Assembly (NCBI GenBank): GCA_036253035.1
Contig: GCA_036253035.1_4123.1
DNA from: a phage
DNA length: 64,000 nucleotides
Direction: 5' to 3' (one strand)
The position numbers and the translations under genes are program-made. This document shows positions 649 through 14,245 of this stretch, in pieces. Each line of letters opens with the position of its first letter. The stretch's first letter is position 1. Below the pieces are notes generated by a model, which saw only the letters and a list, made by a program, of their open reading frames with translations, was not told the origin of the DNA and searched no databases.

Positions 649-676
649 AAAAAAGGCTGACCGAAGTCAACCTTTT
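649..676 (-). terminator. rho-independent terminator (GGUUGAC-UUCG-GUCAGCC hairpin + U tract)
   Basis: plus aaaaaaGGCTGACCGAAGTCAACC; on minus strand perfect stem with one G-U pair, UUCG tetraloop, followed by U run. Confidence 0.8.
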
Positions 677-1191: not shown

Positions 1192-1217
1192 CAAAAAGGG
1201 CTGACCGAAGTCAACCC
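1192..1217 (-). terminator. rho-independent terminator, same conserved hairpin
   Basis: GGGCTGACCGAAGTCAACCC flanked by A run (plus); stop codon of 1211..1624 lies inside hairpin. Confidence 0.75.
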
Positions 1218-1624
1218 TTTTTTCTTTCAATCAAACATAGTCTACCAGAATGTACCATGCGATGGTGATTAGAACAAAGAATCATACACTTTCGAATTTC
1301 ATCTTTGATAGCATCTCGACTTTTACTGAACATAGAACTTGGTGTATGTTCTTTGGTATTAGGGTCAAGATGGTGAAAGTCTAAACATTCTGGATACTTC
1401 ATCATACAAATACTACAACCATAAAATGATTTAACTCTGGTCATGAAATCTTTATTTTTTCTTTTGATTTCTTCAAGTTTTTTGACATCAGTTTTTTTAT
1501 TTCTGGTTTTCTTACTGGTAATATTACTACAACCTTTGCATGTATTTCTATGTTTCCCAGTATCTTTTCTTATACCAAATTCACTAATGTCTTTTTCAAT
1601 ATTACACGTGATACACTTCTTCAT
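1211..1624 (-). CDS. HNH endonuclease with N-terminal Cys-rich zinc finger
   Basis: 137 aa; CxxC..CxxC then DFHHLDP..CSNHHRMVH (HNH-type His/Asn pattern). Confidence 0.65.
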   Translation of the reverse strand: MKKCITCNIEKDISEFGIRKDTGKHRNTCKGCSNITSKKTRNKKTDVKKLEEIKRKNKDFMTRVKSFYGCSICMMKYPECLDFHHLDPNTKEHTPSSMFSKSRDAIKDEIRKCMILCSNHHRMVHSGRLCLIERKKG

Positions 1625-1636
1625 TGTTTAATCCAT

Positions 1637-1924
1637 TTATTCAACAATCCCCAACTTCACAATCTCATACCCGTCCAGATAGCCGTAGGAACACTCAGGT
1701 GTTTCATAAGATGAACCATCATGGATGCCCTGGCATTGACTTTTGGAATTCTCAAGCAATCGTTGTAGTACTGATACGTCATCAAGAACGTAATACAAGT
1801 TAGCATATAGGTCAGTTACAATACAGTACTCCAACATATCAAATGTATCAATCGAAATTTCAACCTTAGCAAATCGTTTCTTTTCTTTATTATACAGTGC
1901 GTACATATTAATCTCCATAATCAA
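1637..1924 (-). CDS. hypothetical protein
   Basis: minus ORF 95 aa tiled with neighbours. Confidence 0.5.
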   Translation of the reverse strand: MIMEINMYALYNKEKKRFAKVEISIDTFDMLEYCIVTDLYANLYYVLDDVSVLQRLLENSKSQCQGIHDGSSYETPECSYGYLDGYEIVKLGIVE

Positions 1925-2324
1925 GTTTAACTAACTTACCATTCAGATAACCAAAGTTTTCTGGCTTCGCATCTGAATAAAAGAAGTCAGTACTTAACTC
2001 TGAATTCAATGCTAAAGCACACAACTCCACCCAAAATAAACCCCTATGTTGAACTGGCTTACAACGTTTCTGTACAGTTACTAGTCCAGTACATGATGAC
2101 CACAAAGTAGGACAGATACCAGTATCACTACGATTGGAGTACTGCATCCACGAACGTTCATTGAGGTTAGCTATCATCCCTGTTAAGAATAGCTTCCAAC
2201 TTTTAAAGGTTGGAATCTTGATAGCATATTCCCCAATGAGGATAACAGTTCGTGTTGCACCTTTAAAATCTATATTCATATTTTTAATTAGAAGAACACA
2301 AACCAAGTCCAGAACAAATTCCAC
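1908..2324 (-). CDS. hypothetical protein
   Basis: minus ORF 138 aa. Confidence 0.5.
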   Translation of the reverse strand: MEFVLDLVCVLLIKNMNIDFKGATRTVILIGEYAIKIPTFKSWKLFLTGMIANLNERSWMQYSNRSDTGICPTLWSSCTGLVTVQKRCKPVQHRGLFWVELCALALNSELSTDFFYSDAKPENFGYLNGKLVKLDYGD

Positions 2325-2539
2325 ATTACAAATAAAGACATAGTGGTTTTATGTACGATATCAGCAGTACTGGTCCATCCTCCACCGTGTCCTATTCCAT
2401 TTATGAATAGAACTAAGAACAAGATACCATTTACTACAATAGTACATACTAAGTACACAAATACATTCCATGCAAGTCCAGGGGATACTAAAGTAAATGG
2501 TAAAACTATTAGTAGTATTAGAACTAATAATATTTTCAT
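2288..2539 (-). CDS. small membrane protein
   Basis: 83 aa, two hydrophobic helices (ILLVLILLIVLPF.., GILFLVLFINGIG). Confidence 0.5.
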   Translation of the reverse strand: MKILLVLILLIVLPFTLVSPGLAWNVFVYLVCTIVVNGILFLVLFINGIGHGGGWTSTADIVHKTTMSLFVMWNLFWTWFVFF

Positions 2540-2766: not shown

Positions 2767-3321
2767 TTATTTCAAAGAATCATAGTAAGCAGTGTCAAAG
2801 ATTGGAGTCATAATAACATAGTCAATACGGTCAATGTAAGTTGAACTCCACATTTCTGGTTTGTCATATAACTGACGCTCGCGTTCATTCATACGAGTCA
2901 GTACTTCTTCCAATTTACTACGTGAATCCATCAATGTATTACTCGAACCATAAGTGAAGTACTCAGTCCAATGATATTCATATTCAGTACTGATAGATTG
3001 AATAGTACCATCTTTGAAATGAGCTAAGGCATAACCTTTCTCTACAAAGTTATCAGGTGGAAGAACACCATCTGGATTAGTTTTCAAGGCTTGTGCTAAC
3101 TTTTCTTTAATTTCAGTTAACGTGCATACTGAACGAATGTTCTTCAGGTTTGATACTTGAAAATCACTGTACTTTCCAAAGAAAAAGACACGCCAATCTT
3201 TAGGTTCATTATCAGATACGGTAGCATTAGGATGATGGGCGAGTAAACGAAGAAGGCCAGCTTTATGACCGTTAATGTAGATTTCATGGATGTGGTTAGC
3301 AGTTTTCTTAAAAGTAATCAT
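2767..3321 (-). CDS. hypothetical protein
   Basis: minus ORF 184 aa. Confidence 0.6.
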   Translation of the reverse strand: MITFKKTANHIHEIYINGHKAGLLRLLAHHPNATVSDNEPKDWRVFFFGKYSDFQVSNLKNIRSVCTLTEIKEKLAQALKTNPDGVLPPDNFVEKGYALAHFKDGTIQSISTEYEYHWTEYFTYGSSNTLMDSRSKLEEVLTRMNERERQLYDKPEMWSSTYIDRIDYVIMTPIFDTAYYDSLK

Positions 3322-3369
3322 GGTAGTTCCTCGATTGTAGGGATGAGAAGTTCATCCCCCTTGATAAGC

Positions 3370-3397
3370 ATTATACAGTACTGAATGTGTTTGTCAA
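3370..3397 (-). promoter_or_regulatory. sigma-70-type promoter (TTGACA-16-TATAAT)
   Basis: minus strand GTTGACAaacacattcagtactgTATAATG; spacer contains CAGTACTG. Confidence 0.65.
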
Positions 3398-3398
3398 C

Positions 3399-3794
3399 TC
3401 AAAATAAATTCATTTCATGTGCGTATTGTGGTTCAAGATAAGATAAGTTTTTGAAACTGTCTTTCAATTCCGCAGCATCTACGTACACAGTACCAGGTAC
3501 ATTCCCCATAGTGAAGCCAACCCAAACAGTCATGTTTCCAGTTCCTAAGCGGGGCATTGATAGCGTCCCATCAGGTGAAACATCAAACGCTACACTAAAG
3601 TCATCCGTTACAACTTCCGAACCATTTTCCAGAATAATACAACCACGTTCTTTAAGCTTCTGAATGTGGATAGCAGCCTCTACAGCACGTTTAAAGTTAT
3701 AGTAAGACTCTTTATCCTCAAACATAGATTGTTTAACCAGACGCTTGTTTAGCTCGGTTACTTTGTACATTTGTCGCATTATTTCAACACCCAT
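3399..3794 (-). CDS. hypothetical protein
   Basis: minus ORF 131 aa. Confidence 0.55.
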   Translation of the reverse strand: MGVEIMRQMYKVTELNKRLVKQSMFEDKESYYNFKRAVEAAIHIQKLKERGCIILENGSEVVTDDFSVAFDVSPDGTLSMPRLGTGNMTVWVGFTMGNVPGTVYVDAAELKDSFKNLSYLEPQYAHEMNLF

Positions 3795-4033
3795 AGTGGT
3801 AGGATTTCATATGAACCTGGAGGTGCTGGATTGATAATCTCAGGGTATTCAGTACTGTTAGGATTACCACCAGCATTGAACTCAGCAAGTAATAATTCGA
3901 GTTCATTCCTATCATGTACAACAAACACGCAATATCCAGTTCCTTCTTCAAGAACTGTAGTTGACCCCGCACAATCCCATACGGTATCAATACATAATAA
4001 TTCTTTAGTGTTTTTATTACGCAACGCAAACAT
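3779..4033 (-). CDS. hypothetical protein
   Basis: 84 aa; strong RBS AGGAGA before ATG; preferred over alternate-frame ORF 3784..4086. Confidence 0.55.
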   Translation of the reverse strand: MFALRNKNTKELLCIDTVWDCAGSTTVLEEGTGYCVFVVHDRNELELLLAEFNAGGNPNSTEYPEIINPAPPGSYEILPLWVLK

Positions 4034-4042
4034 ATATGTCTC

Positions 4043-4387
4043 CTATCGATTCGGCATATTCGTTCGTAGTCGCAAGAGAAATTCAACCACTGACCATGTT
4101 GTAATGAAGGCTATATAAGTTGCAAGGAATCCAGTAAGAATAAATGCAACCAGCGTACTACCATTTGGGGAATCAGTTTTAATGCCGATGACACCATCGG
4201 CTACAGTGAAACATGTAGCCATTAATGTGTAACCTACGTACAACACAAAGAAAAACTCATTCTCCATTGAAGGATAGAAACGGTTAAACACTTTATAAAA
4301 TTTAAAGTACAGTAGGATTATACCAACAAAGGCATAGAATGTAAACAGTGTTGTTATAATATATGAGATTAGGTTCAAATTATACAT
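4043..4387 (-). CDS. membrane protein, paralog 1 of 3 (4 predicted TM)
   Basis: ATG at 4387 with GGAG RBS (track ORF starts 4411 at GTG); motifs F(K/R)Y.(V/T)L..R.YP and C-terminal R..NxPE(R/K) shared with next two genes. Confidence 0.6.
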   Translation of the reverse strand: MYNLNLISYIITTLFTFYAFVGIILLYFKFYKVFNRFYPSMENEFFFVLYVGYTLMATCFTVADGVIGIKTDSPNGSTLVAFILTGFLATYIAFITTWSVVEFLLRLRTNMPNR

Positions 4388-4388
4388 A

Positions 4389-4730
4389 TCAACGCTCCGG
4401 TAGATTATCACGTAATGTTTTAATTCGATGATACATTTTCATACCAATATTACCAAAGATACCATATCCAAGTACTAAAATGTATGCAATAAGCATAGTA
4501 ATAATTACTATAGTACCAAAACTATAATGTACACTACTGATACCCATTGTAGTTTCAACGATTATTTGAGAAACTGAAAGAATCAAAAGTACAACTACAA
4601 TTGGATGATTTGGGTACATTCGGTTGAACAACGTTTTGTACTTAAAGAAGCACAGTACTCCACCGAATAAGAAGTAAACAATGTAAATGCAAGCAACAGC
4701 ATAGGCAAACATGTTAGTGTAATAAATCAT
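4389..4730 (-). CDS. membrane protein, paralog 2 of 3
   Basis: 113 aa, hydrophobic, shared motifs as above. Confidence 0.6.
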   Translation of the reverse strand: MIYYTNMFAYAVACIYIVYFLFGGVLCFFKYKTLFNRMYPNHPIVVVLLILSVSQIIVETTMGISSVHYSFGTIVIITMLIAYILVLGYGIFGNIGMKMYHRIKTLRDNLPER

Positions 4731-4739
4731 TACAAATCC

Positions 4740-5078
4740 TTACTTTTCAGGGATATTAGAACGCCATATATCAATGCGATGAACTAGTCCAAAGAACAAC
4801 CATACTGGAACGGCAGCTATCATAACAACAAATGAAAACCCAGTCAAGACCGATACCAGATTTAATTCATCAGTACTATACCCACATATCAGTACTTCTA
4901 ATATTCCCCACGTACATGCACAAAACATCAAGAATGAAATTGGGGCATCATAGTAGATACGTTCATATAAAGTAGTGTATCGGAAGAATGCAATAATGTA
5001 GCAAAACATATAATACACCCAAACCAAAGATACTACATAAAATGATACTTTGTTTATTAATTCAAAATATTGTTCCAT
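4740..5078 (-). CDS. membrane protein, paralog 3 of 3
   Basis: 112 aa, hydrophobic, shared motifs as above. Confidence 0.6.
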   Translation of the reverse strand: MEQYFELINKVSFYVVSLVWVYYMFCYIIAFFRYTTLYERIYYDAPISFLMFCACTWGILEVLICGYSTDELNLVSVLTGFSFVVMIAAVPVWLFFGLVHRIDIWRSNIPEK

Positions 5079-5080
5079 TT

Positions 5081-5362
5081 TTACCCCAATATATATTCAG
5101 AGAGTAATGTATTAGCTTCATCTTTGTTCTTAAGGTAATACATGTAATATAGATTCGGTTCACCATCTTTAGCACTCAAATCGAAGTACTTTAAACTATG
5201 TACTTTCATAGTAAAAACAAATAATGGCTTAAAACCAATCTCACCGTACTTAATAAACAGTTCATCCAAATGAATGTAACTTTTTGATTTGGATAATTCT
5301 TTAACGTCTGCATCAATTTCAGATAAAAGATGCTTACCTATTAAGTTTTCAAATGAACGCAT
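5081..5362 (-). CDS. hypothetical protein
   Basis: minus ORF 93 aa. Confidence 0.5.
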   Translation of the reverse strand: MRSFENLIGKHLLSEIDADVKELSKSKSYIHLDELFIKYGEIGFKPLFVFTMKVHSLKYFDLSAKDGEPNLYYMYYLKNKDEANTLLSEYILG

Positions 5363-5423
5363 GATTTTATCCTTTACCGCAATTTTTATGGTTTATTAAG
5401 AATACACCAGAACATCAGTTCTG

Positions 5424-6065
5424 TCAATAAAAAACTGGATCTTCTTCAGTAACTGGTATTTCTCTACGTACATCACACGAAAGAGGATCAGTAATGAATA
5501 CATTGCCATCTTTATCCATCATGACATTACTGGAATGAATGTCTGGTACAAAACGCCCGTGAAACTCTTTCATGATGTTAGCAGCGACCGTCGCAATAGC
5601 AATCTCTTCAGAATTTCCACGCATATCATTCACTGAAGTAGCGTACTGACCAGCATGTGCATACGAATACAAATCACCAATTTTAGTACTAACAAAGTCA
5701 TCATAATTATTTTTTTGTTTAATTATAGGATAGTACTTGTCCATCTCATACCATCCAAAGTTTCCTTGTTCGTTGGCACTGTAGATCACTGGAAGAAACT
5801 TGGTTCCTGCGTTTTCAATGCAGTACTTTGCATAAGCACGAAAACCATCCCAGCGTGAAGTGGTTACTTTAAATGCACGTCCAGGATAGTTTTTATGTTC
5901 AACTACTACAGAGTACATCCCCATTCCAAGCAAAGTAAGTCCAGCAGCTTTAACTTGTGGAAAGATTACGCGTTCAGCATAAGGAATATCAAACTCCATC
6001 GCACAACGAGTTTTTGATGGACGCAAAATGTCAATTAAAGTTTTGAATATTTCTTGCTTAGTCAT
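5424..6065 (-). CDS. protein-kinase-like fold protein (putative Ser/Thr kinase)
   Basis: Gly-rich loop LGMGMYSVV, AFKV lysine motif, catalytic-loop-like DIHSSNVMMD, ITD; probable start ATG 6065 with AGGA RBS (track start 6098). Confidence 0.5.
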   Translation of the reverse strand: MTKQEIFKTLIDILRPSKTRCAMEFDIPYAERVIFPQVKAAGLTLLGMGMYSVVVEHKNYPGRAFKVTTSRWDGFRAYAKYCIENAGTKFLPVIYSANEQGNFGWYEMDKYYPIIKQKNNYDDFVSTKIGDLYSYAHAGQYATSVNDMRGNSEEIAIATVAANIMKEFHGRFVPDIHSSNVMMDKDGNVFITDPLSCDVRREIPVTEEDPVFY

Positions 6066-6101
6066 TACTTTATCCTCTGTAGTTAATATCAACATCATAA
6101 C

Positions 6102-6126
6102 AAAAAAGGCTGACCGAAGTCAACCC
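6102..6126 (-). terminator. rho-independent terminator, conserved UUCG hairpin
   Basis: aaaaaaGGCTGACCGAAGTCAACC. Confidence 0.8.
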
Positions 6127-6134
6127 TTTTATTA

Positions 6135-6554
6135 TCATTTACAGTTTTCTATAACTATTGCACGTTTTAGTATTTTACTTTCATAAACATACTTAAGATG
6201 ACCTTCTTCACGAATACGATTGAACACATATCCTAGTTTATCTTTTAGTACTGAAGCGGTATCAATGTCAAGATTAACTTCAACCCCTCCTGTTAATTTA
6301 ACTTTATATGTAAAGCTAAAAGCATCACCAGATTCAACCAATGGGACTACTTGTTCATACGTATTCAACATAACTCGTTCATCATTAACTAAATTATATA
6401 TTACAATATCACAAGTTTTTACCCCAATTTCCTCTAAGGTAGGAGCATTGTCTACTATAACATCTTTTACTGTATTAGCAACCTGTTTAGCATCTGCTGC
6501 ATATACATTAAAACTAAGAAGTACTAAAATAATACTTAAAAAAATCTTTTTCAT
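6135..6554 (-). CDS. secreted protein (signal peptide)
   Basis: 139 aa; MKKIFLSIILVLLSFNVYA|AD. Confidence 0.6.
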   Translation of the reverse strand: MKKIFLSIILVLLSFNVYAADAKQVANTVKDVIVDNAPTLEEIGVKTCDIVIYNLVNDERVMLNTYEQVVPLVESGDAFSFTYKVKLTGGVEVNLDIDTASVLKDKLGYVFNRIREEGHLKYVYESKILKRAIVIENCK

Positions 6555-6891: not shown

Positions 6892-7143
6892 TCACCGAAA
6901 CTCTTTTTCTATTCCGAGTACATCCGTCTTACGCTCAGATAGTATACCTGAAGTATATGAATCTTTGTTGTCAAACGCATTAAATCCAATAGTTCTGTCG
7001 GTGTCGTGTATTATTCCTTTTGTGTATGAGGTAGTATAGAACTCCCCATTTCTGAAATCCTGCCTTGCTACGGAGCAATGATAATCTGCACCATAAGCAG
7101 TACTGGAAAATAATACAATTCCAAATATAATATATTTTTTCAT
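6892..7143 (-). CDS. secreted protein (signal peptide)
   Basis: 83 aa; MKKYIIFGIVLFSSTAYGA. Confidence 0.55.
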   Translation of the reverse strand: MKKYIIFGIVLFSSTAYGADYHCSVARQDFRNGEFYTTSYTKGIIHDTDRTIGFNAFDNKDSYTSGILSERKTDVLGIEKEFR

Positions 7144-7177: not shown

Positions 7178-7202
7178 CAAAAAAAGGCTGACCGAAGTCA
7201 AC
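7178..7202 (-). terminator. rho-independent terminator, conserved UUCG hairpin
   Basis: aaaaaaaGGCTGACCGAAGTCAACC. Confidence 0.8.
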
Positions 7203-7213
7203 CTTTAGTTTTA

Positions 7214-8767
7214 TCATTTACCGTATTTGCTCATGATGTCCTTTTCCCAATGAGTTACGTTACCGTTATCGTAATCTTTAAAGGAATTATCAAGAGTAGT
7301 TAATGCATATTCGTATGCTTCAGGTGATTCAATGTCAACATCATCAGCACCATTTACTAAATCAGTCCATGCTTTTTGTAGTTTACGAGCATTTTTACCA
7401 ACATTACTTTTAATCCAACTAATGTTTTTGTTGATACTCTTATTATCAGCACCAGCTTTTTTACCAATATCGGATATCCACATCATTAGCTTTTGGAGTT
7501 CATGAATGGAGTTGTCGTTCATTTCACGATCTTTAGCCAATTCTGCTTCCATGCCATCAGTATCAGTACCATCTTTAGAACCTACATCAATTCCATGTTT
7601 AGCTAATAGTTTACCAAGTTCAAAGAATGCTGCCTCAGCAGGGAAGTCATAACCTTTGTCTTTGTAGTTGTTCCATGCACTATCAAACTCATCTACAAAT
7701 CGGTTGGCATAATCTGGATTGTCCACGAGAGCTTTGTACACTGCCATTGCATGTTCAAATCCTTCTTTGTCAGAACCAAACTCTCCCATTTCTGGACGAT
7801 GAATGTAACCATCCATATCAACAGTATCAGGTAAATCATCATGAGATGTTTCAGCATCTTTCTGGTCAACTGCACCTTCTTCATCATCACGCATCAGATA
7901 ACCATCTCGTGTAACCTTCTCACCGTGATCAGCTTCATACTTTTTCATAGTATTGAATGCAGCATCCATTGCAGTTACAAAACGACTCTTTTCACCTTGT
8001 ACATAAGATTTAAGTGCATCGTTAACTGCATCAGATACTAATTTAATCTTATCGTCTTTACCTTCCAGACGGTTTTCTAACTTAGCTAGTACATTCTTAA
8101 CTTGTTGAGCATTAGCACGGTCTTCTTTACCAATACTATCAAATGTTTTAAGTACGCTTTCAAGACTTACTTCCTCTTGTGCAGGCACATCACCTTGTTG
8201 CGTACCTTCAAGTGCACGCATTATAGTACTGAATACTTCAGTTGGTTCAGTACTGGTATTTCCACTCATTGCATCAAGTACAGCTTGTGCTTTGACTTTT
8301 AATTCTTCTTTAGGTACAGATTGCAATTCTTTCACAATACCTTGGATAAGTTGTGGTTTATTAGCAAAAATCTTACCTAACTTATCAGACAATTCTTTGA
8401 CAGGGTTAACCGCCTTTGGTGCTTCTTGTTTTGGTTCTTCTTTCGCAGGAGAAGACTTTTCTTTTTCTTCACGTTCCATATCAGCTAGGCGTTGTTTTTG
8501 TGTAGCATTAAGAAGTCCCAATGAATTAACATAACGTAGCTTTTCTAGCTCAGTCATGTTCTCAGTACTCTTAACTTCACCTGCTTCTGCGTTTGCTTTA
8601 CCAGCTAGACCAGTTCCTTGGTTACGTGATCCACGTGAACCTTGACCTGCTTGATAACTATTTGGTCGGCGGTTGCGTTCACTCCATTTATCCGAGTGAC
8701 CAGCCATGTTACCACCATTTTTATCAGTAAAATTACTTGGCATTTGATTTCTCTCCATAGATTTCAT
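7214..8767 (-). CDS. large hydrophilic protein, unknown function
   Basis: 517 aa, acidic/coiled; shares KYLxSLGLL motif with 9014..9397; TATAAATA-like motif about 25 nt upstream. Confidence 0.7.
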   Translation of the reverse strand: MKSMERNQMPSNFTDKNGGNMAGHSDKWSERNRRPNSYQAGQGSRGSRNQGTGLAGKANAEAGEVKSTENMTELEKLRYVNSLGLLNATQKQRLADMEREEKEKSSPAKEEPKQEAPKAVNPVKELSDKLGKIFANKPQLIQGIVKELQSVPKEELKVKAQAVLDAMSGNTSTEPTEVFSTIMRALEGTQQGDVPAQEEVSLESVLKTFDSIGKEDRANAQQVKNVLAKLENRLEGKDDKIKLVSDAVNDALKSYVQGEKSRFVTAMDAAFNTMKKYEADHGEKVTRDGYLMRDDEEGAVDQKDAETSHDDLPDTVDMDGYIHRPEMGEFGSDKEGFEHAMAVYKALVDNPDYANRFVDEFDSAWNNYKDKGYDFPAEAAFFELGKLLAKHGIDVGSKDGTDTDGMEAELAKDREMNDNSIHELQKLMMWISDIGKKAGADNKSINKNISWIKSNVGKNARKLQKAWTDLVNGADDVDIESPEAYEYALTTLDNSFKDYDNGNVTHWEKDIMSKYGK

Positions 8768-8798
8768 TTTTTTCTCTATGTCTATATTTATAGTATAA

Positions 8799-8822
8799 AG
8801 AAAAGGCTGACCGAAGTCAACC
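8799..8822 (-). terminator. rho-independent terminator, conserved UUCG hairpin
   Basis: gaaaaGGCTGACCGAAGTCAACC. Confidence 0.75.
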
Positions 8823-8830
8823 TTATTTTG

Positions 8831-9013: not shown

Positions 9014-9397
9014 TTACTTCTTGAACTTATGTTTTTCACTTTCGATTGCATTCACGATTTCATCATGAATTTTACGAAGATTGTGAGTTTTCTTGAGAGA
9101 ATCATGCAATGCACGGAATGCAGAGTGTACTGTTGCTTTAAAGTGCTCTTTAGGAGTTACTTTAAGTTTCTCGATAATATCACGTACATAGATTGGGTGA
9201 TCCTCAAACACACGATTAAGCTCATGACCTAGTGATTCTAGGCTAAATGCTTTTTCACGGGATGGACGATCATGTGCAAGACTTTGGTCCGGTTTTAGAA
9301 GACCTAGTGAATCTAGATACTTGTGCTTATGTGCATTGTCTAGACCAGAAATATCAACATCATGTGATGGATCTTTCTTATTCCATTTATCAACCAT
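9014..9397 (-). CDS. hypothetical protein sharing N-terminal motif with 517-aa protein
   Basis: 127 aa; KYLDSLGLLKPDQ. Confidence 0.6.
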   Translation of the reverse strand: MVDKWNKKDPSHDVDISGLDNAHKHKYLDSLGLLKPDQSLAHDRPSREKAFSLESLGHELNRVFEDHPIYVRDIIEKLKVTPKEHFKATVHSAFRALHDSLKKTHNLRKIHDEIVNAIESEKHKFKK

Positions 9398-9475
9398 TTT
9401 TATAACTCCTATAAGAGATAAATTTTACTATAATATTTATAGTTCCGTTGTCATTTATATCGAATGACATAAAAC

Positions 9476-12224: not shown

Positions 12225-12248
12225 AAAAAAGGCTGACCGAAGTCAACC
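12225..12248 (-). terminator. rho-independent terminator, conserved UUCG hairpin
   Basis: aaaaaaGGCTGACCGAAGTCAACC; stop codon of 12243..12434 embedded in hairpin. Confidence 0.75.
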
Positions 12249-12434
12249 TTTGTTTTGAAGTTCTTGAACTAATTGTCGTACTTCGTTAATATTATTACAC
12301 TGCTTTACAGTGAAGTAATCATACTTACGACCATAGGTTCTTGGGTCATCACCTTCCATATACTGCTGCACATCAAAGATTTGTAAGTAGGGATGCTGCA
12401 TAACACGAATATTTTCACTTTGATAAATCAACAT
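12243..12434 (-). CDS. hypothetical protein
   Basis: track ORF 12243..12488; internal ATG 12434 avoids overlap with upstream gene. Confidence 0.45.
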   Translation of the reverse strand: MLIYQSENIRVMQHPYLQIFDVQQYMEGDDPRTYGRKYDYFTVKQCNNINEVRQLVQELQNKG

Positions 12435-12438
12435 AATA

Positions 12439-12789
12439 TCAATCCTTATATTTACACAAGCCACCAAAACTAGTTTCTTTAGCACCACGACGCATCATAA
12501 CTAATTTAGCATATTGTGTACCATTACTATCTTCATATACATCTACTTCAATAAACGCTAAGAAGTTAGGGTCTGTGTCGTTAGAAAACTCAGTGAAGCT
12601 AATGTCGCCTACTGTATGCTCTTTAACAAACGTATATGATTGTCCATCAATATATACAATATCTCGATCGTCACTATCACCTTGATAGATATGTTTAATA
12701 TTACCATCTGTACAAACTAAACCTTCCAATGGTTCAGCATATGACAATCCACACATTAACATACATACAAAAAATAAAATAATTTTCAT
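12439..12789 (-). CDS. secreted protein (signal peptide)
   Basis: 116 aa; MKIILFFVCMLMCGLSYA|EP. Confidence 0.55.
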   Translation of the reverse strand: MKIILFFVCMLMCGLSYAEPLEGLVCTDGNIKHIYQGDSDDRDIVYIDGQSYTFVKEHTVGDISFTEFSNDTDPNFLAFIEVDVYEDSNGTQYAKLVMMRRGAKETSFGGLCKYKD

Positions 12790-12791
12790 GA

Positions 12792-13169
12792 TTATTTTCC
12801 TCCAACGTTAAGTGATTTCTTGTACTGATATTCTTTATAAGTACTATACCATATATCACCAACGTAAATCAAGTACCACGTAGCAGGATAAAGAGCCAAT
12901 CCAGTACTGATGTATACGAACTTTTGGTCAAGGACATCAAATACATGCAGAAGGAAAGTTACTCCCATAATGCAAGAACAAATTAACCATAAGTTATAAG
13001 CCATTGAATCGCAAGCAAAAATAGAATCAAGCTTAGAAATTAGGACATATTTGTTTGTTAAAATAAAATGAATTACTGCAACTAAACAATATCCTGCCAT
13101 AAAAATAGAAATTAAAAAAGACAGAATAATTGGAATATTCAACAACAAAAGTAAAATAGTGTTTACCAT
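12792..13169 (-). CDS. membrane protein
   Basis: 125 aa, multiple hydrophobic helices. Confidence 0.55.
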   Translation of the reverse strand: MVNTILLLLLNIPIILSFLISIFMAGYCLVAVIHFILTNKYVLISKLDSIFACDSMAYNLWLICSCIMGVTFLLHVFDVLDQKFVYISTGLALYPATWYLIYVGDIWYSTYKEYQYKKSLNVGGK

Positions 13170-13180
13170 TTTTTTAAGTC

Positions 13181-13540
13181 CTATATTTCACAGTGTAAGT
13201 TCAATTTATCTATATCTAGGTCACGGCGTACCGATGAGTCCAAGTAAATTACTATATAGATATCACCATTACCAGTTCTTGGGTCTACAATTAATATTAC
13301 GTTTGCTAATGTACCAGAATCATCTCTATAAGTCGAGATTTTTTTATTACCAATAATACTTTCTACTTTAAAACGATAAATCACGCCATCAACAACTATA
13401 TTTTTACCATTTCTAGGGTCGTTAGTCAATACATGCCACGTTCCCTTAGTACTACGACAATATGTTTCTGCTGCTGCACCATAACTAAAACATGAAAATA
13501 ATGCACACACAAGTGCTATTAATTTTATATAACTTTTCAT
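13181..13540 (-). CDS. secreted protein (signal peptide)
   Basis: 119 aa; MKSYIKLIALVCALFSCFSYGAAA. Confidence 0.55.
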   Translation of the reverse strand: MKSYIKLIALVCALFSCFSYGAAAETYCRSTKGTWHVLTNDPRNGKNIVVDGVIYRFKVESIIGNKKISTYRDDSGTLANVILIVDPRTGNGDIYIVIYLDSSVRRDLDIDKLNLHCEI

Positions 13541-13618
13541 AACAAACCTCTAACGAGAAATACTTCTGTACTATATATATGTACAGAAGTATTTAATACT
13601 ATAGAGGTATTTTGACTG

Positions 13619-13945
13619 TTACATCTTATTCGTGAACTTGAATTTGATAATATCAATCCAAATTTTAACATTTCCTGCAAATAGTGCTTTGATTAGCCAC
13701 ATAATTGCAACAAAGTTCTCAACTAAATCCAAAGTTTTAACTACTGCACCGAGTGGGAAGATAAAACTCAAAACCCATACAATTACTGAAACCACAACGA
13801 CTGTATAGAAAATACGCACAATCGGTGAATCAAGCATAAACAACTCAGAGAACTCTTTTTTATCATTATCATCAGTAATAAAGCATTCGTAAACCAGAAG
13901 CCAAATCAGAATTAAAGACGGAATTGAAATTAGTACTGATAGCAT
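13619..13945 (-). CDS. membrane protein
   Basis: 108 aa hydrophobic. Confidence 0.55.
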   Translation of the reverse strand: MLSVLISIPSLILIWLLVYECFITDDNDKKEFSELFMLDSPIVRIFYTVVVVSVIVWVLSFIFPLGAVVKTLDLVENFVAIMWLIKALFAGNVKIWIDIIKFKFTNKM

Positions 13946-13991
13946 ATTTTTTACCTCAAGTTTAAGTGTTAAGTTTCAGACTACAGGAACC

Positions 13992-14019
13992 ATTATACAG
14001 TACTACTAATGGTTGTCAA
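13992..14019 (-). promoter_or_regulatory. sigma-70-type promoter (TTGACA-16-TATAAT)
   Basis: minus GTTGACAaccattagtagtactgTATAATG. Confidence 0.6.
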
Positions 14020-14245
14020 CTGGTTTTTCTTCAATAAGCATAAGATAACTGATTACGAAGAGTAATACCGACACAATATCAATAACAGTAAAGCTCACGG
14101 GAATGATAATAGAAACCAGTACTAATGCCACGTTTAGCAAGAATACAGTAGTGATATCTACAATCGGTCGTTTAGTGGCTAATGCTACTAGTGTAGGATA
14201 AAACATAAACAATAGTGCAACAACAAAACTTAGTACTAGATACAT
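14006..14245 (-). CDS. small membrane protein
   Basis: 79 aa hydrophobic. Confidence 0.5.
   Translation of the reverse strand: MYLVLSFVVALLFMFYPTLVALATKRPIVDITTVFLLNVALVLVSIIIPVSFTVIDIVSVLLFVISYLMLIEEKPVDNH

What the first reader, a model, noticed from the sequence alone, without database searches (positions are those of the whole stretch)
4043..5078. Three tandem paralogous four-helix membrane proteins
Three adjacent 112-114-aa genes encode hydrophobic proteins sharing an F(K/R)Y..L..R.YP motif after the first helix and an R..NxPE(R/K) C-terminus. A tandem membrane-protein triplet in an early region is a candidate for superinfection exclusion or injection blocking.
Basis: partly seen in the sequence, partly recalled or inferred. 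Interest (0 to 1): 0.45.

Follow-up and report, generated by a model that had tools for sequence, protein, structure and literature searches.

The report
Tandem three-helix membrane proteins, jumbo phage
Three neighbouring genes of a 121Q-like giant E. coli phage encode real, related small inner-membrane proteins of a family found almost only in these phages; they are probably made early in infection, and their job (possibly blocking entry of rival phage DNA) is still untested.

Summary
The window is an Asteriusvirus jumbo phage (99% identical to Escherichia phage 121Q). Three minus-strand genes, C 4740-5078, B 4389-4730 and A 4043-4387 (121Q gp207-209), encode 112-114-aa paralogs. Pairwise BLASTP E-values are 1e-10 to 4e-4, and similarity survives within-region shuffling. 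dN/dS is 0.14-0.30.

Each protein has three, not four, membrane-spanning helices, plus a short loop helix. Charge distribution predicts the N-terminus outside and the C-terminus inside.

An exhaustive search of 1.84 billion representative proteins found only 13 clusters. Members whose source could be traced lie in E. coli/Salmonella jumbo phages, one Erwinia jumbo phage, or AT-rich metagenomic contigs with the same neighbouring genes. They occur as arrays of 1-4 copies in one syntenic block.

The genes sit in a tightly packed unit behind a hairpin plus sigma-70-type promoter cassette. No T4-type late-promoter motif is nearby, and the endolysin lies far away.

No known family or fold matches: T4 Imm, holins, colicin immunity, Pfam, NCBIfam, PADLOC and PDB were all negative.

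Function is unknown. My best guess (about 0.3) is Imm-like superinfection immunity acting at the inner membrane. This is a modest finding: a new, uncharacterised family of a familiar kind.

The parts
4740..5078 (-). Gene C (112 aa; 121Q gp207 orthologue), first member of the array. Three TM spans at about 13-31, 47-65 and 74-92; loop motif FFRYTTLYERIYY; C-terminus WRSNIPEK.
   Evidence: PHROG 19285, 3.9e-59; dN/dS 0.19.
4389..4730 (-). Gene B (113 aa; 121Q gp208 orthologue). Three TM spans at about 11-29, 44-62 and 73-91; loop motif FFKYKTLFNRMYP; C-terminus LRDNLPER. Its start is 9 nt after the stop of C.
   Evidence: 1.4e-58; dN/dS 0.14; AF2 pLDDT 87.6.
4043..4387 (-). Gene A (114 aa from the ATG at 4387; 121Q gp209 orthologue), the most divergent member. 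Three TM spans at about 10-28, 45-63 and 78-96; loop motif YFKFYKVFNRFYP; C-terminus LRTNMPNR. Its start is 1 nt after the stop of B, and its GGAG Shine-Dalgarno lies inside B's last codons.
   Evidence: 4.3e-4; family HMM 7e-39; dN/dS 0.30.
6094..6127 (-). Hairpin (AAGGGTTGAC-TTCG-GTCAGCCTTTTTT) with the -35 TTGACT inside it, followed by TGTTATGAT. This is a combined terminator and sigma-70-type promoter cassette, and it is the nearest upstream copy of the six repeated cassettes. It probably starts the transcription unit kinase - gp206-like - C - B - A - gp210-like - gp211-like; a weaker promoter-like match (10/12) at 5427-5399 lies closer to the array.
   Evidence: (6 copies, 0 expected). 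Function as a promoter is inferred, not measured.
5424..6065 (-). T7 gp0.7-like protein kinase, first gene of the unit (context only). It is absent from the same position in BF17, so it is not obligately linked to the array.
   Evidence: (PHROG 15752, 2.7e-98).
5081..5362 (-). gp206-like gene (93 aa, PHROG 37917, soluble). It is the gene immediately upstream of the array in 121Q, BF17 and Turkey5. Its stop is 2 nt before the ATG of C.
3779..4033 (-). gp210-like gene (84 aa, PHROG 8563), the conserved downstream neighbour of the array. It has a paralog at 1637-1924.
3370..3397 (-). Perfect consensus sigma-70 promoter (TTGACA-16-TATAAT) in the gap downstream of the gp211-like gene. It marks the start of the next promoter-headed segment.
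   Evidence: 12/12 match.

Best explanation
Shown or strongly supported. A, B and C are old tandem duplicates, about 25% identical to one another. They belong to a lineage-restricted family of roughly 110-aa inner-membrane proteins with three transmembrane helices. The N-terminus is predicted in the periplasm and the C-terminus in the cytoplasm. A short cytoplasmic loop helix (FFKYxxLxxRxY) and a basic cytoplasmic tail ending RxNxPxR are conserved. The genes are co-transcribed in an early, host-RNA-polymerase-dependent unit.

Inferred mechanism. Each paralog inserts into the host inner membrane soon after infection. It then works as an independent module, alone or as a homo-oligomer, and gives the infected cell superinfection immunity. 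By analogy with T4 Imm, which binds the tape-measure protein, each would bind and block the membrane-inserting ejection or tape-measure proteins of incoming phages. Different paralogs would cover different competitors.
For: Identity, paralogy and selection.

Topology: three hydrophobic spans in every member. K+R residues cluster in loop 1 and the C-tail (6-8 per protein) against 0-1 in the N-terminus and loop 2, which are acidic. The AF2 model has pLDDT 87.6.

Early expression (inferred): hairpin plus sigma-70 promoter cassettes. Spacers of 1-9 nt separate gp206, C, B, A and gp210. The TATAAATA late motif is depleted in the window, and its two minus-strand copies sit only in front of the two virion-protein genes. 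In the related phage CBB, RpoD-like promoters mark the presumed early host-takeover block (PMC5259590).

Not virion components: gp028c and gp029c are absent from the phAPEC6 virion proteome.

Modular, accessory behaviour: copy number is 1 (EJP2, Kaldavass), 2 (L011, L013), 3 (121Q, BF17, Turkey5) or 4 (L018). One copy is present or absent between near-identical phages (L018 versus Turkey5). All arrays sit in the same syntenic block. Single-copy phages argue against an obligate A-B-C complex.

Narrow distribution and fast divergence: only 13 clusters at 50% identity among 1.84 billion representatives.

Precedent: T4 Imm is a small early membrane protein with a periplasmic N-terminus that blocks genome entry by binding the tape-measure protein (bioRxiv 10.64898/2026.03.06.709160).

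Neighbourhood: the same region encodes several other envelope-targeted small proteins.
Against: There is no homology to Imm, Sp, SieA-type or any other characterised exclusion protein. Fold searches return only generic helical hits.

The best conserved elements are TM1 and the predicted cytoplasmic loop and tail. A protein that recognises incoming periplasmic or membrane-inserting components might be expected to conserve its outer face, or to diversify there under positive selection. Instead dN/dS is 0.14-0.30, and orthologue substitutions fall mostly in TM2 and TM3 (31%), which may simply be lipid-facing drift.

Early timing rests on sequence motifs alone. No transcriptome or phenotype exists for this phage group in the papers read.
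Confidence: 0.3

Rival explanations
1. Host-takeover effectors that act from the cytoplasmic face. The conserved loop helix and the RxNxPxR tail would form a cytoplasmic surface, anchored by three TM helices. That surface would bind and inhibit or redirect a host inner-membrane or membrane-proximal protein, for example a division, transport, respiration or membrane-bound defence protein. Paralogs would address different host targets or host variants.
For: The most conserved positions are F/K/Y/R of loop 1 and R/P of the C-tail, both predicted cytoplasmic, together with TM1. The early operon is shared with a host-directed kinase in 121Q-type phages. Selection is purifying. The family is restricted to enterobacterial jumbo phages.
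Against: No partner is known and there is no similarity to any characterised inhibitor. Variable copy number and presence/absence between near-identical phages fit an accessory competition function somewhat better than a core takeover step. The kinase linkage is not conserved.
Confidence: 0.3
2. Holin or antiholin-type lysis-timing proteins. The proteins have class I holin architecture (small, three TM helices, N-out/C-in, charged C-terminal tail). They would accumulate in the membrane and permeabilise it, or regulate the real holin or the membrane-anchored endolysin.
For: Size, three TM spans, predicted N-out/C-in topology and a basic C-tail match the class I holin description (lambda S105 type; my own knowledge). 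The group's endolysin (121Q gp532) has an N-terminal TM domain, and no convincing holin has been assigned (PMC5259590). fEgEco12's 'holin' is only an HHpred hit with E = 2.6.
Against: The genes lie in a sigma-70-promoter unit with no late-promoter motif. They are far from the endolysin (gp207-209 versus gp532). There is no hit to any holin family in Pfam or PHROGs. There are one to four diverged copies. The C-tail carries a strictly conserved motif rather than merely charge. Early expression of a functional holin would be suicidal.
Confidence: 0.07
3. Subunits of one hetero-oligomeric membrane complex, such as a viroporin-like ion channel or a membrane scaffold for phage replication or assembly, in which A, B and C each occupy a fixed position.
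For: The A, B and C lineages are each retained over long divergence (A-like P0012, B-like P0014, C-like P0015 and Turkey5 copy 1). Tight translational coupling would favour equal stoichiometry. Polar residues are conserved near the outer ends of TM1 (Asn) and TM2 (Asp/Glu).
Against: Phages with a single member (EJP2, Kaldavass) or two (L011, L013), and gain or loss of one copy between near-identical phages, show that no fixed trio is required. There is no structural similarity to known channels.
Confidence: 0.12

Closest known systems
PHROG 19285 (unknown function)
   Same: B and C match over their full length at about 1e-58, and A matches at 4e-4. This is the only catalogued family that contains them.
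   Different: It is a purely computational cluster with no function, topology or paralogy described. A is only a marginal member.
T4 Imm (superinfection immunity protein)
   Same: A small early phage protein of the inner membrane with a periplasmic N-terminus and a compact helical core. It blocks genome entry by binding the tape-measure protein (bioRxiv 10.64898/2026.03.06.709160). The genomic setting among early genes is comparable.
   Different: There is no detectable sequence similarity: no hit to the Imm families in Pfam or PHROGs at E <= 1. Imm is 83-94 aa and single-copy. Here the proteins are 112-114 aa, have three clear TM spans, and come in arrays of 1-4. Function is untested.
Class I holins (lambda S105 type)
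   Same: About 100-115 aa, three TM helices, N-out/C-in, basic C-terminal tail (architecture known from the literature; own knowledge).
   Different: The promoter context is early, not late. The genes are not near the endolysin or spanins. There is no match to a holin family. There are multiple diverged copies, and the cytoplasmic motifs are strictly conserved.
E1-type pore-forming colicin immunity proteins (ColE1 Imm, 113 aa)
   Same: Same size and three hydrophobic spans (sequence read from ColE1). These proteins block a membrane-inserting pore former, the analogy drawn for T4 Imm.
   Different: hhalign probability is 0.5% and there is no plasmid-borne homologue. The charge distribution of ColE1 Imm implies the opposite orientation, N-in/C-out (my reading of the sequence).
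Tandem arrays of about 110-aa three-TM proteins with a ...KRGK C-terminus in Erwinia phage Kaldavass, GAP32, CBB, Serratia BF and Yersinia fHe-Yen9 phages
   Same: Same size, three TM spans, a conserved motif just after TM1 (ADYYxKL) and a basic C-terminus. They form tandem arrays in related jumbo phages; in Kaldavass the array lies about 2 kb from the one true family member.
   Different: Not demonstrably homologous: hhalign probability is 0.7%, and family-HMM hits are only E = 6e-4 to 2.6 in a 13-sequence search.

Membership tests
PHROG 19285 | Significant full-length match to the family profile | tested here: met
   C 3.9e-59, B 1.4e-58, A 4.3e-4 (A marginal).
T4 Imm-type superinfection immunity proteins | Sequence match to the Imm family (Pfam Imm_superinfect or the corresponding PHROG) | tested here: not met
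   No such family listed at E <= 1 for any of the 3 proteins or 17 family members.
T4 Imm-type superinfection immunity proteins | Small inner-membrane protein with a periplasmic N-terminus | tested here: met
   Three TM spans; the positive-inside rule gives N-out/C-in. This is a prediction only.
T4 Imm-type superinfection immunity proteins | Expressed early in infection | tested here: inconclusive
   A sigma-70-type promoter/hairpin cassette lies upstream and there is no late motif. No transcript data exist.
T4 Imm-type superinfection immunity proteins | Blocks DNA entry of superinfecting phage; binds the tape-measure protein | not testable with these tools
   Needs expression-and-challenge and binding experiments.
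Class I holins | Small protein, three TM helices, N-out/C-in, charged C-terminal tail | tested here: met
   (predicted).
Class I holins | Late expression and/or linkage to endolysin and spanin genes | tested here: not met
   Early-type promoter unit; TATAAATA is absent near the genes. The endolysin homologue is 121Q gp532, against gp207-209 here.
Class I holins | Match to a described holin family | tested here: not met
   No holin family in Pfam, PHROGs or NCBIfam at E <= 1. One BFVD 'holin-like' hit has E = 3.3 and TM-score 0.28.
Class I holins | Forms lethal membrane lesions that release endolysin | not testable with these tools
   Needs a lysis complementation assay.
E1-type colicin immunity proteins | Sequence or profile similarity to ColE1 Imm | tested here: not met
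   hhalign probability 0.5%; no tblastn hit in 72,556 plasmids.
E1-type colicin immunity proteins | Three TM helices in a protein of about 111-113 aa | tested here: met
   Orientation appears opposite, judged from the charge distribution.
Known anti-phage defence proteins (PADLOC) | Match to a defence-system protein model | tested here: not met
   best E = 0.84, in one member only.

The most novel reading that the evidence does not exclude
The family is a new class of modular inner-membrane immunity proteins unrelated to T4 Imm. Each paralog would neutralise the membrane-inserting genome-delivery apparatus (or another pore former) of a different competitor. Jumbo phages would then carry an expandable 'immunity array' of 1-4 copies, possibly analogous to the unrelated three-TM arrays of GAP32- and CBB-type phages.
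Probability: 0.2. Interest if true: 0.55.

Novelty: new member of a known kind. Interest (0 to 1): 0.3.

Why it matters
Most genes of the 121Q/PBECO4 group of jumbo coliphages have no assigned function (83% in phAPEC6), and these phages are being proposed for therapy. This work defines a clean, experimentally tractable family with a predicted topology, conserved motifs and a variable-copy array in the presumed early region. That gives a concrete entry point into how these phages remodel or guard the host membrane.

If the proteins prove to be exclusion factors, they would add a new sequence family to the few mechanistically understood injection blockers. They would also matter for designing phage cocktails, because one phage could exclude another. 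If they are not, the result is simply a better annotation of three hypothetical genes.

Tried and rejected
1. Family and domain assignment. Pfam, NCBIfam, PADLOC and a PDB sequence-profile search gave nothing significant. Weak hits to DUF350, TRAP-gamma, SLAC1 and MnhG/MnhF (E = 0.003-0.4) each occur in only 1-3 of 17 members, and I treat them as compositional.

3. Further paralogs in the 64-kb window. None was found: the next family-HMM hit has E = 0.074.

4. Homology to the Kaldavass/GAP32/CBB three-TM arrays. Rejected by hhalign, probability 0.7%.

5. Homology to ColE1 immunity protein. Rejected.

6. Plasmid-borne homologues. None.

7. More loci in IMG/VR. The search for related loci failed on the diverse alignment and found nothing for P0018 or P0014.

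8. Published functional data. Papers on phAPEC6, Sharanji, UE-S1 and fEgEco12 contain no mention of these genes, transmembrane paralogs or transcript timing.

9. C-terminal 'PER' conserved only because it encodes the next gene's Shine-Dalgarno. Rejected: this holds only at the B/A junction (CCGGAGCGT). C uses CCTGAAAAG, with the Shine-Dalgarno after the stop, and the motif persists in distant members.

10. Obligate linkage to the gp0.7-like kinase. Rejected: the kinase is absent at that position in BF17 and Turkey5.

Full report
**What the window is.** The region 3300-6200 is 99.2% identical to Escherichia phage 121Q (348 kb, genus Asteriusvirus). It is 98-99% identical to about 20 other E. 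coli and Salmonella jumbo phages, including PBECO4, phAPEC6, Sharanji and slurp01. A second group of Asteriusvirus phages (BF17, fEgEco12, Turkey3) matches at about 84%. Of 142 non-overlapping ORFs in the window, 133 are on the minus strand. The corresponding 121Q stretch is a run of more than 80 small, mostly hypothetical genes.

**The observation.** Three minus-strand ORFs occupy 4043-5078:
- C: 4740-5078, 112 aa.
- B: 4389-4730, 113 aa.
- A: 4043-4387, 114 aa from the ATG.

They are 121Q gp207, gp208 and gp209, all annotated 'hypothetical protein'. Spacing is tight. The gp206-like stop is 2 nt before C, C is 9 nt before B, B is 1 nt before A, and A is 9 nt before the gp210-like gene. A Shine-Dalgarno sequence precedes each start.

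**Paralogy is real.**
- BLASTP with composition adjustment gives B-C 1e-10, A-B 2e-6 and A-C 4e-4.
- PHROG 19285 matches C and B at about 1e-58 and A at 4e-4.
- Alignment scores beat 1000 composition-preserving shuffles (z = 12.3, 8.4, 6.8). They also beat shuffles restricted to each TM or loop segment (z = 8.1, 5.6, 3.4), so the similarity is not just shared hydrophobicity.
- Against the BF17 orthologues, dN/dS is 0.19 (C), 0.14 (B) and 0.30 (A), similar to the flanking genes at 0.12 and 0.14. These are real, constrained proteins.

**Architecture: three TM helices, not four.** Kyte-Doolittle profiles give three hydrophobic spans in each protein and in the 17-sequence family alignment.

With that alignment, AlphaFold2 gives a confident model of B (pLDDT 87.6, pTM 0.63). 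The helices are 2-28, 32-38, 43-62 and 71-108. There are thus three membrane helices, a 7-residue loop helix carrying the FKY..L..R motif, and a TM3 that continues into the C-terminal tail.

Lys and Arg concentrate in loop 1 (two columns at 94-100% K/R) and in the C-tail, which includes an invariant Arg. The N-terminus and loop 2 carry almost none and are acidic. The positive-inside rule therefore predicts N-out/C-in.

Family-wide conserved positions are:
- an Asn just before TM1;
- a Tyr (about 94% of sequences, nearly invariant) and a Gly in TM1;
- F-F-K-Y-x-x-L-x-x-R-x-Y in loop 1;
- an Asp or Glu near the outer end of TM2, followed by Gly;
- R-x-[NK]-x-P-x-[RK] at the C-terminus.

The C-terminal spacing is off by one, and A and C deviate at single positions.

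**Distribution.**
- The word-indexed search of 5.8 billion proteins with a profile found 11 clusters.
- The exhaustive HMMER search of 1.84 billion representatives found only 13 clusters with E <= 1e-3.
- tblastn against 50,697 phage records finds B only in 29 Escherichia and 4 Salmonella jumbo phages.
- More distant members sit in EJP2, Turkey5/JNE01 and Erwinia phage Kaldavass, and in AT-rich metagenomic contigs with the same neighbouring genes.
- Nothing was found in plasmids, or in IMG/VR for two distant members used as queries (P0018, P0014).

**Array structure.** Copy number varies, but the position is kept. The array lies downstream of the gp201-like virion protein and next to the gp206-, gp210-, gp211- and gp212-like genes.

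| Phage or contig | Copies | Arrangement |
|---|---|---|
| 121Q type, BF17 type | 3 | C-B-A |
| Turkey5 | 3 | C-like, X, then a lysine-rich 117-aa soluble gene, then D |
| Metagenomic contig L018 | 4 | as Turkey5, plus an extra A-like copy |
| Contigs L011, L013 | 2 | tandem pair |
| EJP2, Kaldavass | 1 | single |

A neighbour-joining tree shows that the A, B and C lineages each predate the split of these phages, and that other lineages (D, X) replace them in some genomes. Between orthologues, TM1 changes least (9%) and TM2 and TM3 change most (31%). No further paralog exists in the window.

**Expression context.** Six copies of AAGG(Y)TGAC-loop-GTCARCCTT occur on one strand, against 0 expected. 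Read on the minus strand, each is a hairpin with a TTCG loop, then a T-run, then TG-n-TATAAT. The -35 TTGACT lies inside the stem. This is a combined terminator and sigma-70 promoter. It resembles the 'promoter-early stem-loop' cassettes described for T4-type phages; that comparison is recalled from the literature and was not checked here.

The copy at 6127-6094 precedes the T7 gp0.7-like kinase (PHROG 15752). Before the next hairpin cassette at 1218, the scan lists a perfect consensus promoter at 3397-3370 and weaker promoter-like matches (9-11 of 12) at 5427-5399 and inside the array genes, plus a weak terminator-like hairpin at 5423-5408 just after the kinase. I treat these weaker matches as probable chance hits: the scan found fewer promoter-like sites than shuffled sequence gives (26 against a mean of 38). 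None has been tested, so the array could also be transcribed from the 5427 site.

The T4-type late motif TATAAATA is depleted in the window (3 against 12 expected). Its two minus-strand copies sit directly upstream of the two genes annotated as virion proteins. None is near the array.

In the related phage CBB, RpoD-like promoters cluster in the block of short genes taken to be early host-takeover genes, and ATAAATA motifs precede structural genes (PMC5259590).

The phAPEC6 virion proteome does not list the A or B orthologues, gp028c and gp029c. Small membrane proteins are easily missed by mass spectrometry, so this is weak evidence.

Early expression is therefore well supported by sequence but has not been measured.

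**Comparison with known families.**
- There are no significant hits in Pfam, NCBIfam, PADLOC or PDB sequences.
- T4 Imm is the closest functional analogue: small, early, with a periplasmic N-terminus, and it blocks genome entry by binding the tape-measure protein. No sequence relationship is detectable.
- Class I holins share the size and predicted topology. The early promoter context, the distance from the endolysin (121Q gp532), the multiple copies and the lack of any holin-family hit all argue against that role.
- ColE1 immunity protein (113 aa, three hydrophobic spans) is unrelated (hhalign 0.5%), and its charges suggest the opposite orientation.
- Kaldavass carries seven further tandem three-TM genes of about 110 aa, with relatives in GAP32, CBB, Serratia BF, Yersinia and Xanthomonas jumbo phages. 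These look analogous but are not demonstrably homologous.

**Interpretation.**

Established:
- This is a lineage-restricted multigene family of three-TM inner-membrane proteins.
- It arose by old tandem duplications.
- It is kept under purifying selection.
- It is arranged in arrays of variable size in the presumed early block of Asteriusvirus-type jumbo phages.

Not established: what the proteins do.

Single-copy genomes, and gain or loss of one copy between near-identical phages, argue that each protein is an independent module rather than a subunit of a fixed A-B-C complex. Narrow distribution, rapid divergence and copy-number flux fit an accessory competition or defence role.

I rank the explanations as follows:
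- Imm-like superinfection immunity at the inner membrane, about 0.3.
- Action on a host membrane-associated target through the conserved cytoplasmic motifs, about 0.3. This is about equally likely and better explains where conservation lies.
- A hetero-oligomeric channel or scaffold, about 0.12.
- A holin or antiholin role, about 0.07.

**Verdict.** The 'four-helix' description should read 'three transmembrane helices plus a short loop helix'. The finding is a new, uncharacterised family of a familiar kind (small early phage membrane proteins) and is of modest interest.

Noticed in passing
window 653-674, 1197-1218, 6106-6127, 7184-7205, 8803-8824, 12229-12250 (minus strand): Six near-identical cassettes, each a G+C-rich hairpin with a TTCG loop and the -35 TTGACT inside the stem, followed by a T-run and TGnTATAAT. 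Each sits between a stop codon and the next gene's Shine-Dalgarno. They look like combined terminator and early-promoter modules, reminiscent of the T4-type 'PeSL' elements as I recall them.
   Followed up: partly
window 8785-8792 and 9434-9441 (minus strand): The T4-type late-promoter motif TATAAATA is depleted in the window (3 found, 12 expected). Its two minus-strand copies lie directly upstream of the two genes annotated as virion structural proteins in 121Q (7214-8767 and about 9017-9424). This suggests it is the functional late promoter here.
   Followed up: partly
window 6065-6098: The first ATG of the kinase ORF (6098) lies inside the -10 box of the promoter cassette. The real start is probably the ATG at 6065, preceded by AGAGGA, giving 213 aa as annotated in phAPEC6 rather than the 224 aa annotated in 121Q.
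   Followed up: partly
window 1211-1624 (minus strand): A 137-aa HNH endonuclease ORF (PHROG 2255, 3e-32) lies between the gp216-like gene and endonuclease V. In 121Q these two genes are adjacent, so this looks like a homing-endonuclease insertion that distinguishes this phage from 121Q.
   Followed up: partly
window 3779-4033 and 1637-1924 (minus strand): Two small soluble proteins both match PHROG 8563 (8e-22 and 5e-25). They are a second pair of paralogs in the same block, and one of them is the conserved downstream neighbour of the membrane-protein array.
   Followed up: no
window 12439-14245 (minus strand): A second cluster of envelope-directed small genes. Two paralogous proteins with signal-peptide-like N-termini (12439-12789 and 13181-13540; BLASTP 5e-5) are interleaved with multi-TM proteins (12792-13169, 13619-13945, 14006-14245). 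None is related to the A/B/C family.
   Followed up: partly
window 6135-6554, 6892-7143 and 2288-2539 (minus strand): More small envelope-targeted proteins lie close to the array: two with signal-peptide-like N-termini (139 and 83 aa) and one 83-aa two-TM protein with no PHROG match.
   Followed up: no
L007 (Erwinia phage Kaldavass) 13935-17226, minus strand: Seven tandem genes of about 110-130 aa encode three-TM proteins with an ADYYxKL motif after TM1 and a ...KRGK C-terminus. Relatives occur in GAP32, CBB, Serratia BF, Erwinia, Yersinia and Xanthomonas jumbo phages. The architecture is analogous to the A/B/C family, but hhalign shows no homology.
   Followed up: partly
L005 (Turkey5) 4639-4992; L018 2494-2847: A 117-aa soluble gene with a lysine-rich N-terminal half (KPKKKAKKEVVKKQKPLVKGLKLKPF) is inserted inside the membrane-protein array in Turkey5-type phages. 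Its function is unknown.
   Followed up: no
P0010 (Salmonella phage SD-1_S14 orthologue of A): This orthologue is 101 aa, with a 13-residue internal deletion inside TM3. It is either a decaying copy or an assembly error.
   Followed up: no
L016 (phAPEC6) 1930-2281: The phAPEC6 GenBank annotation leaves a 350-nt gap where gene C lies, so this gene is unannotated in that record. CMSTMSU (L003) shows all three genes broken by frameshifts, consistent with its 'UNVERIFIED' low-quality assembly.
   Followed up: partly
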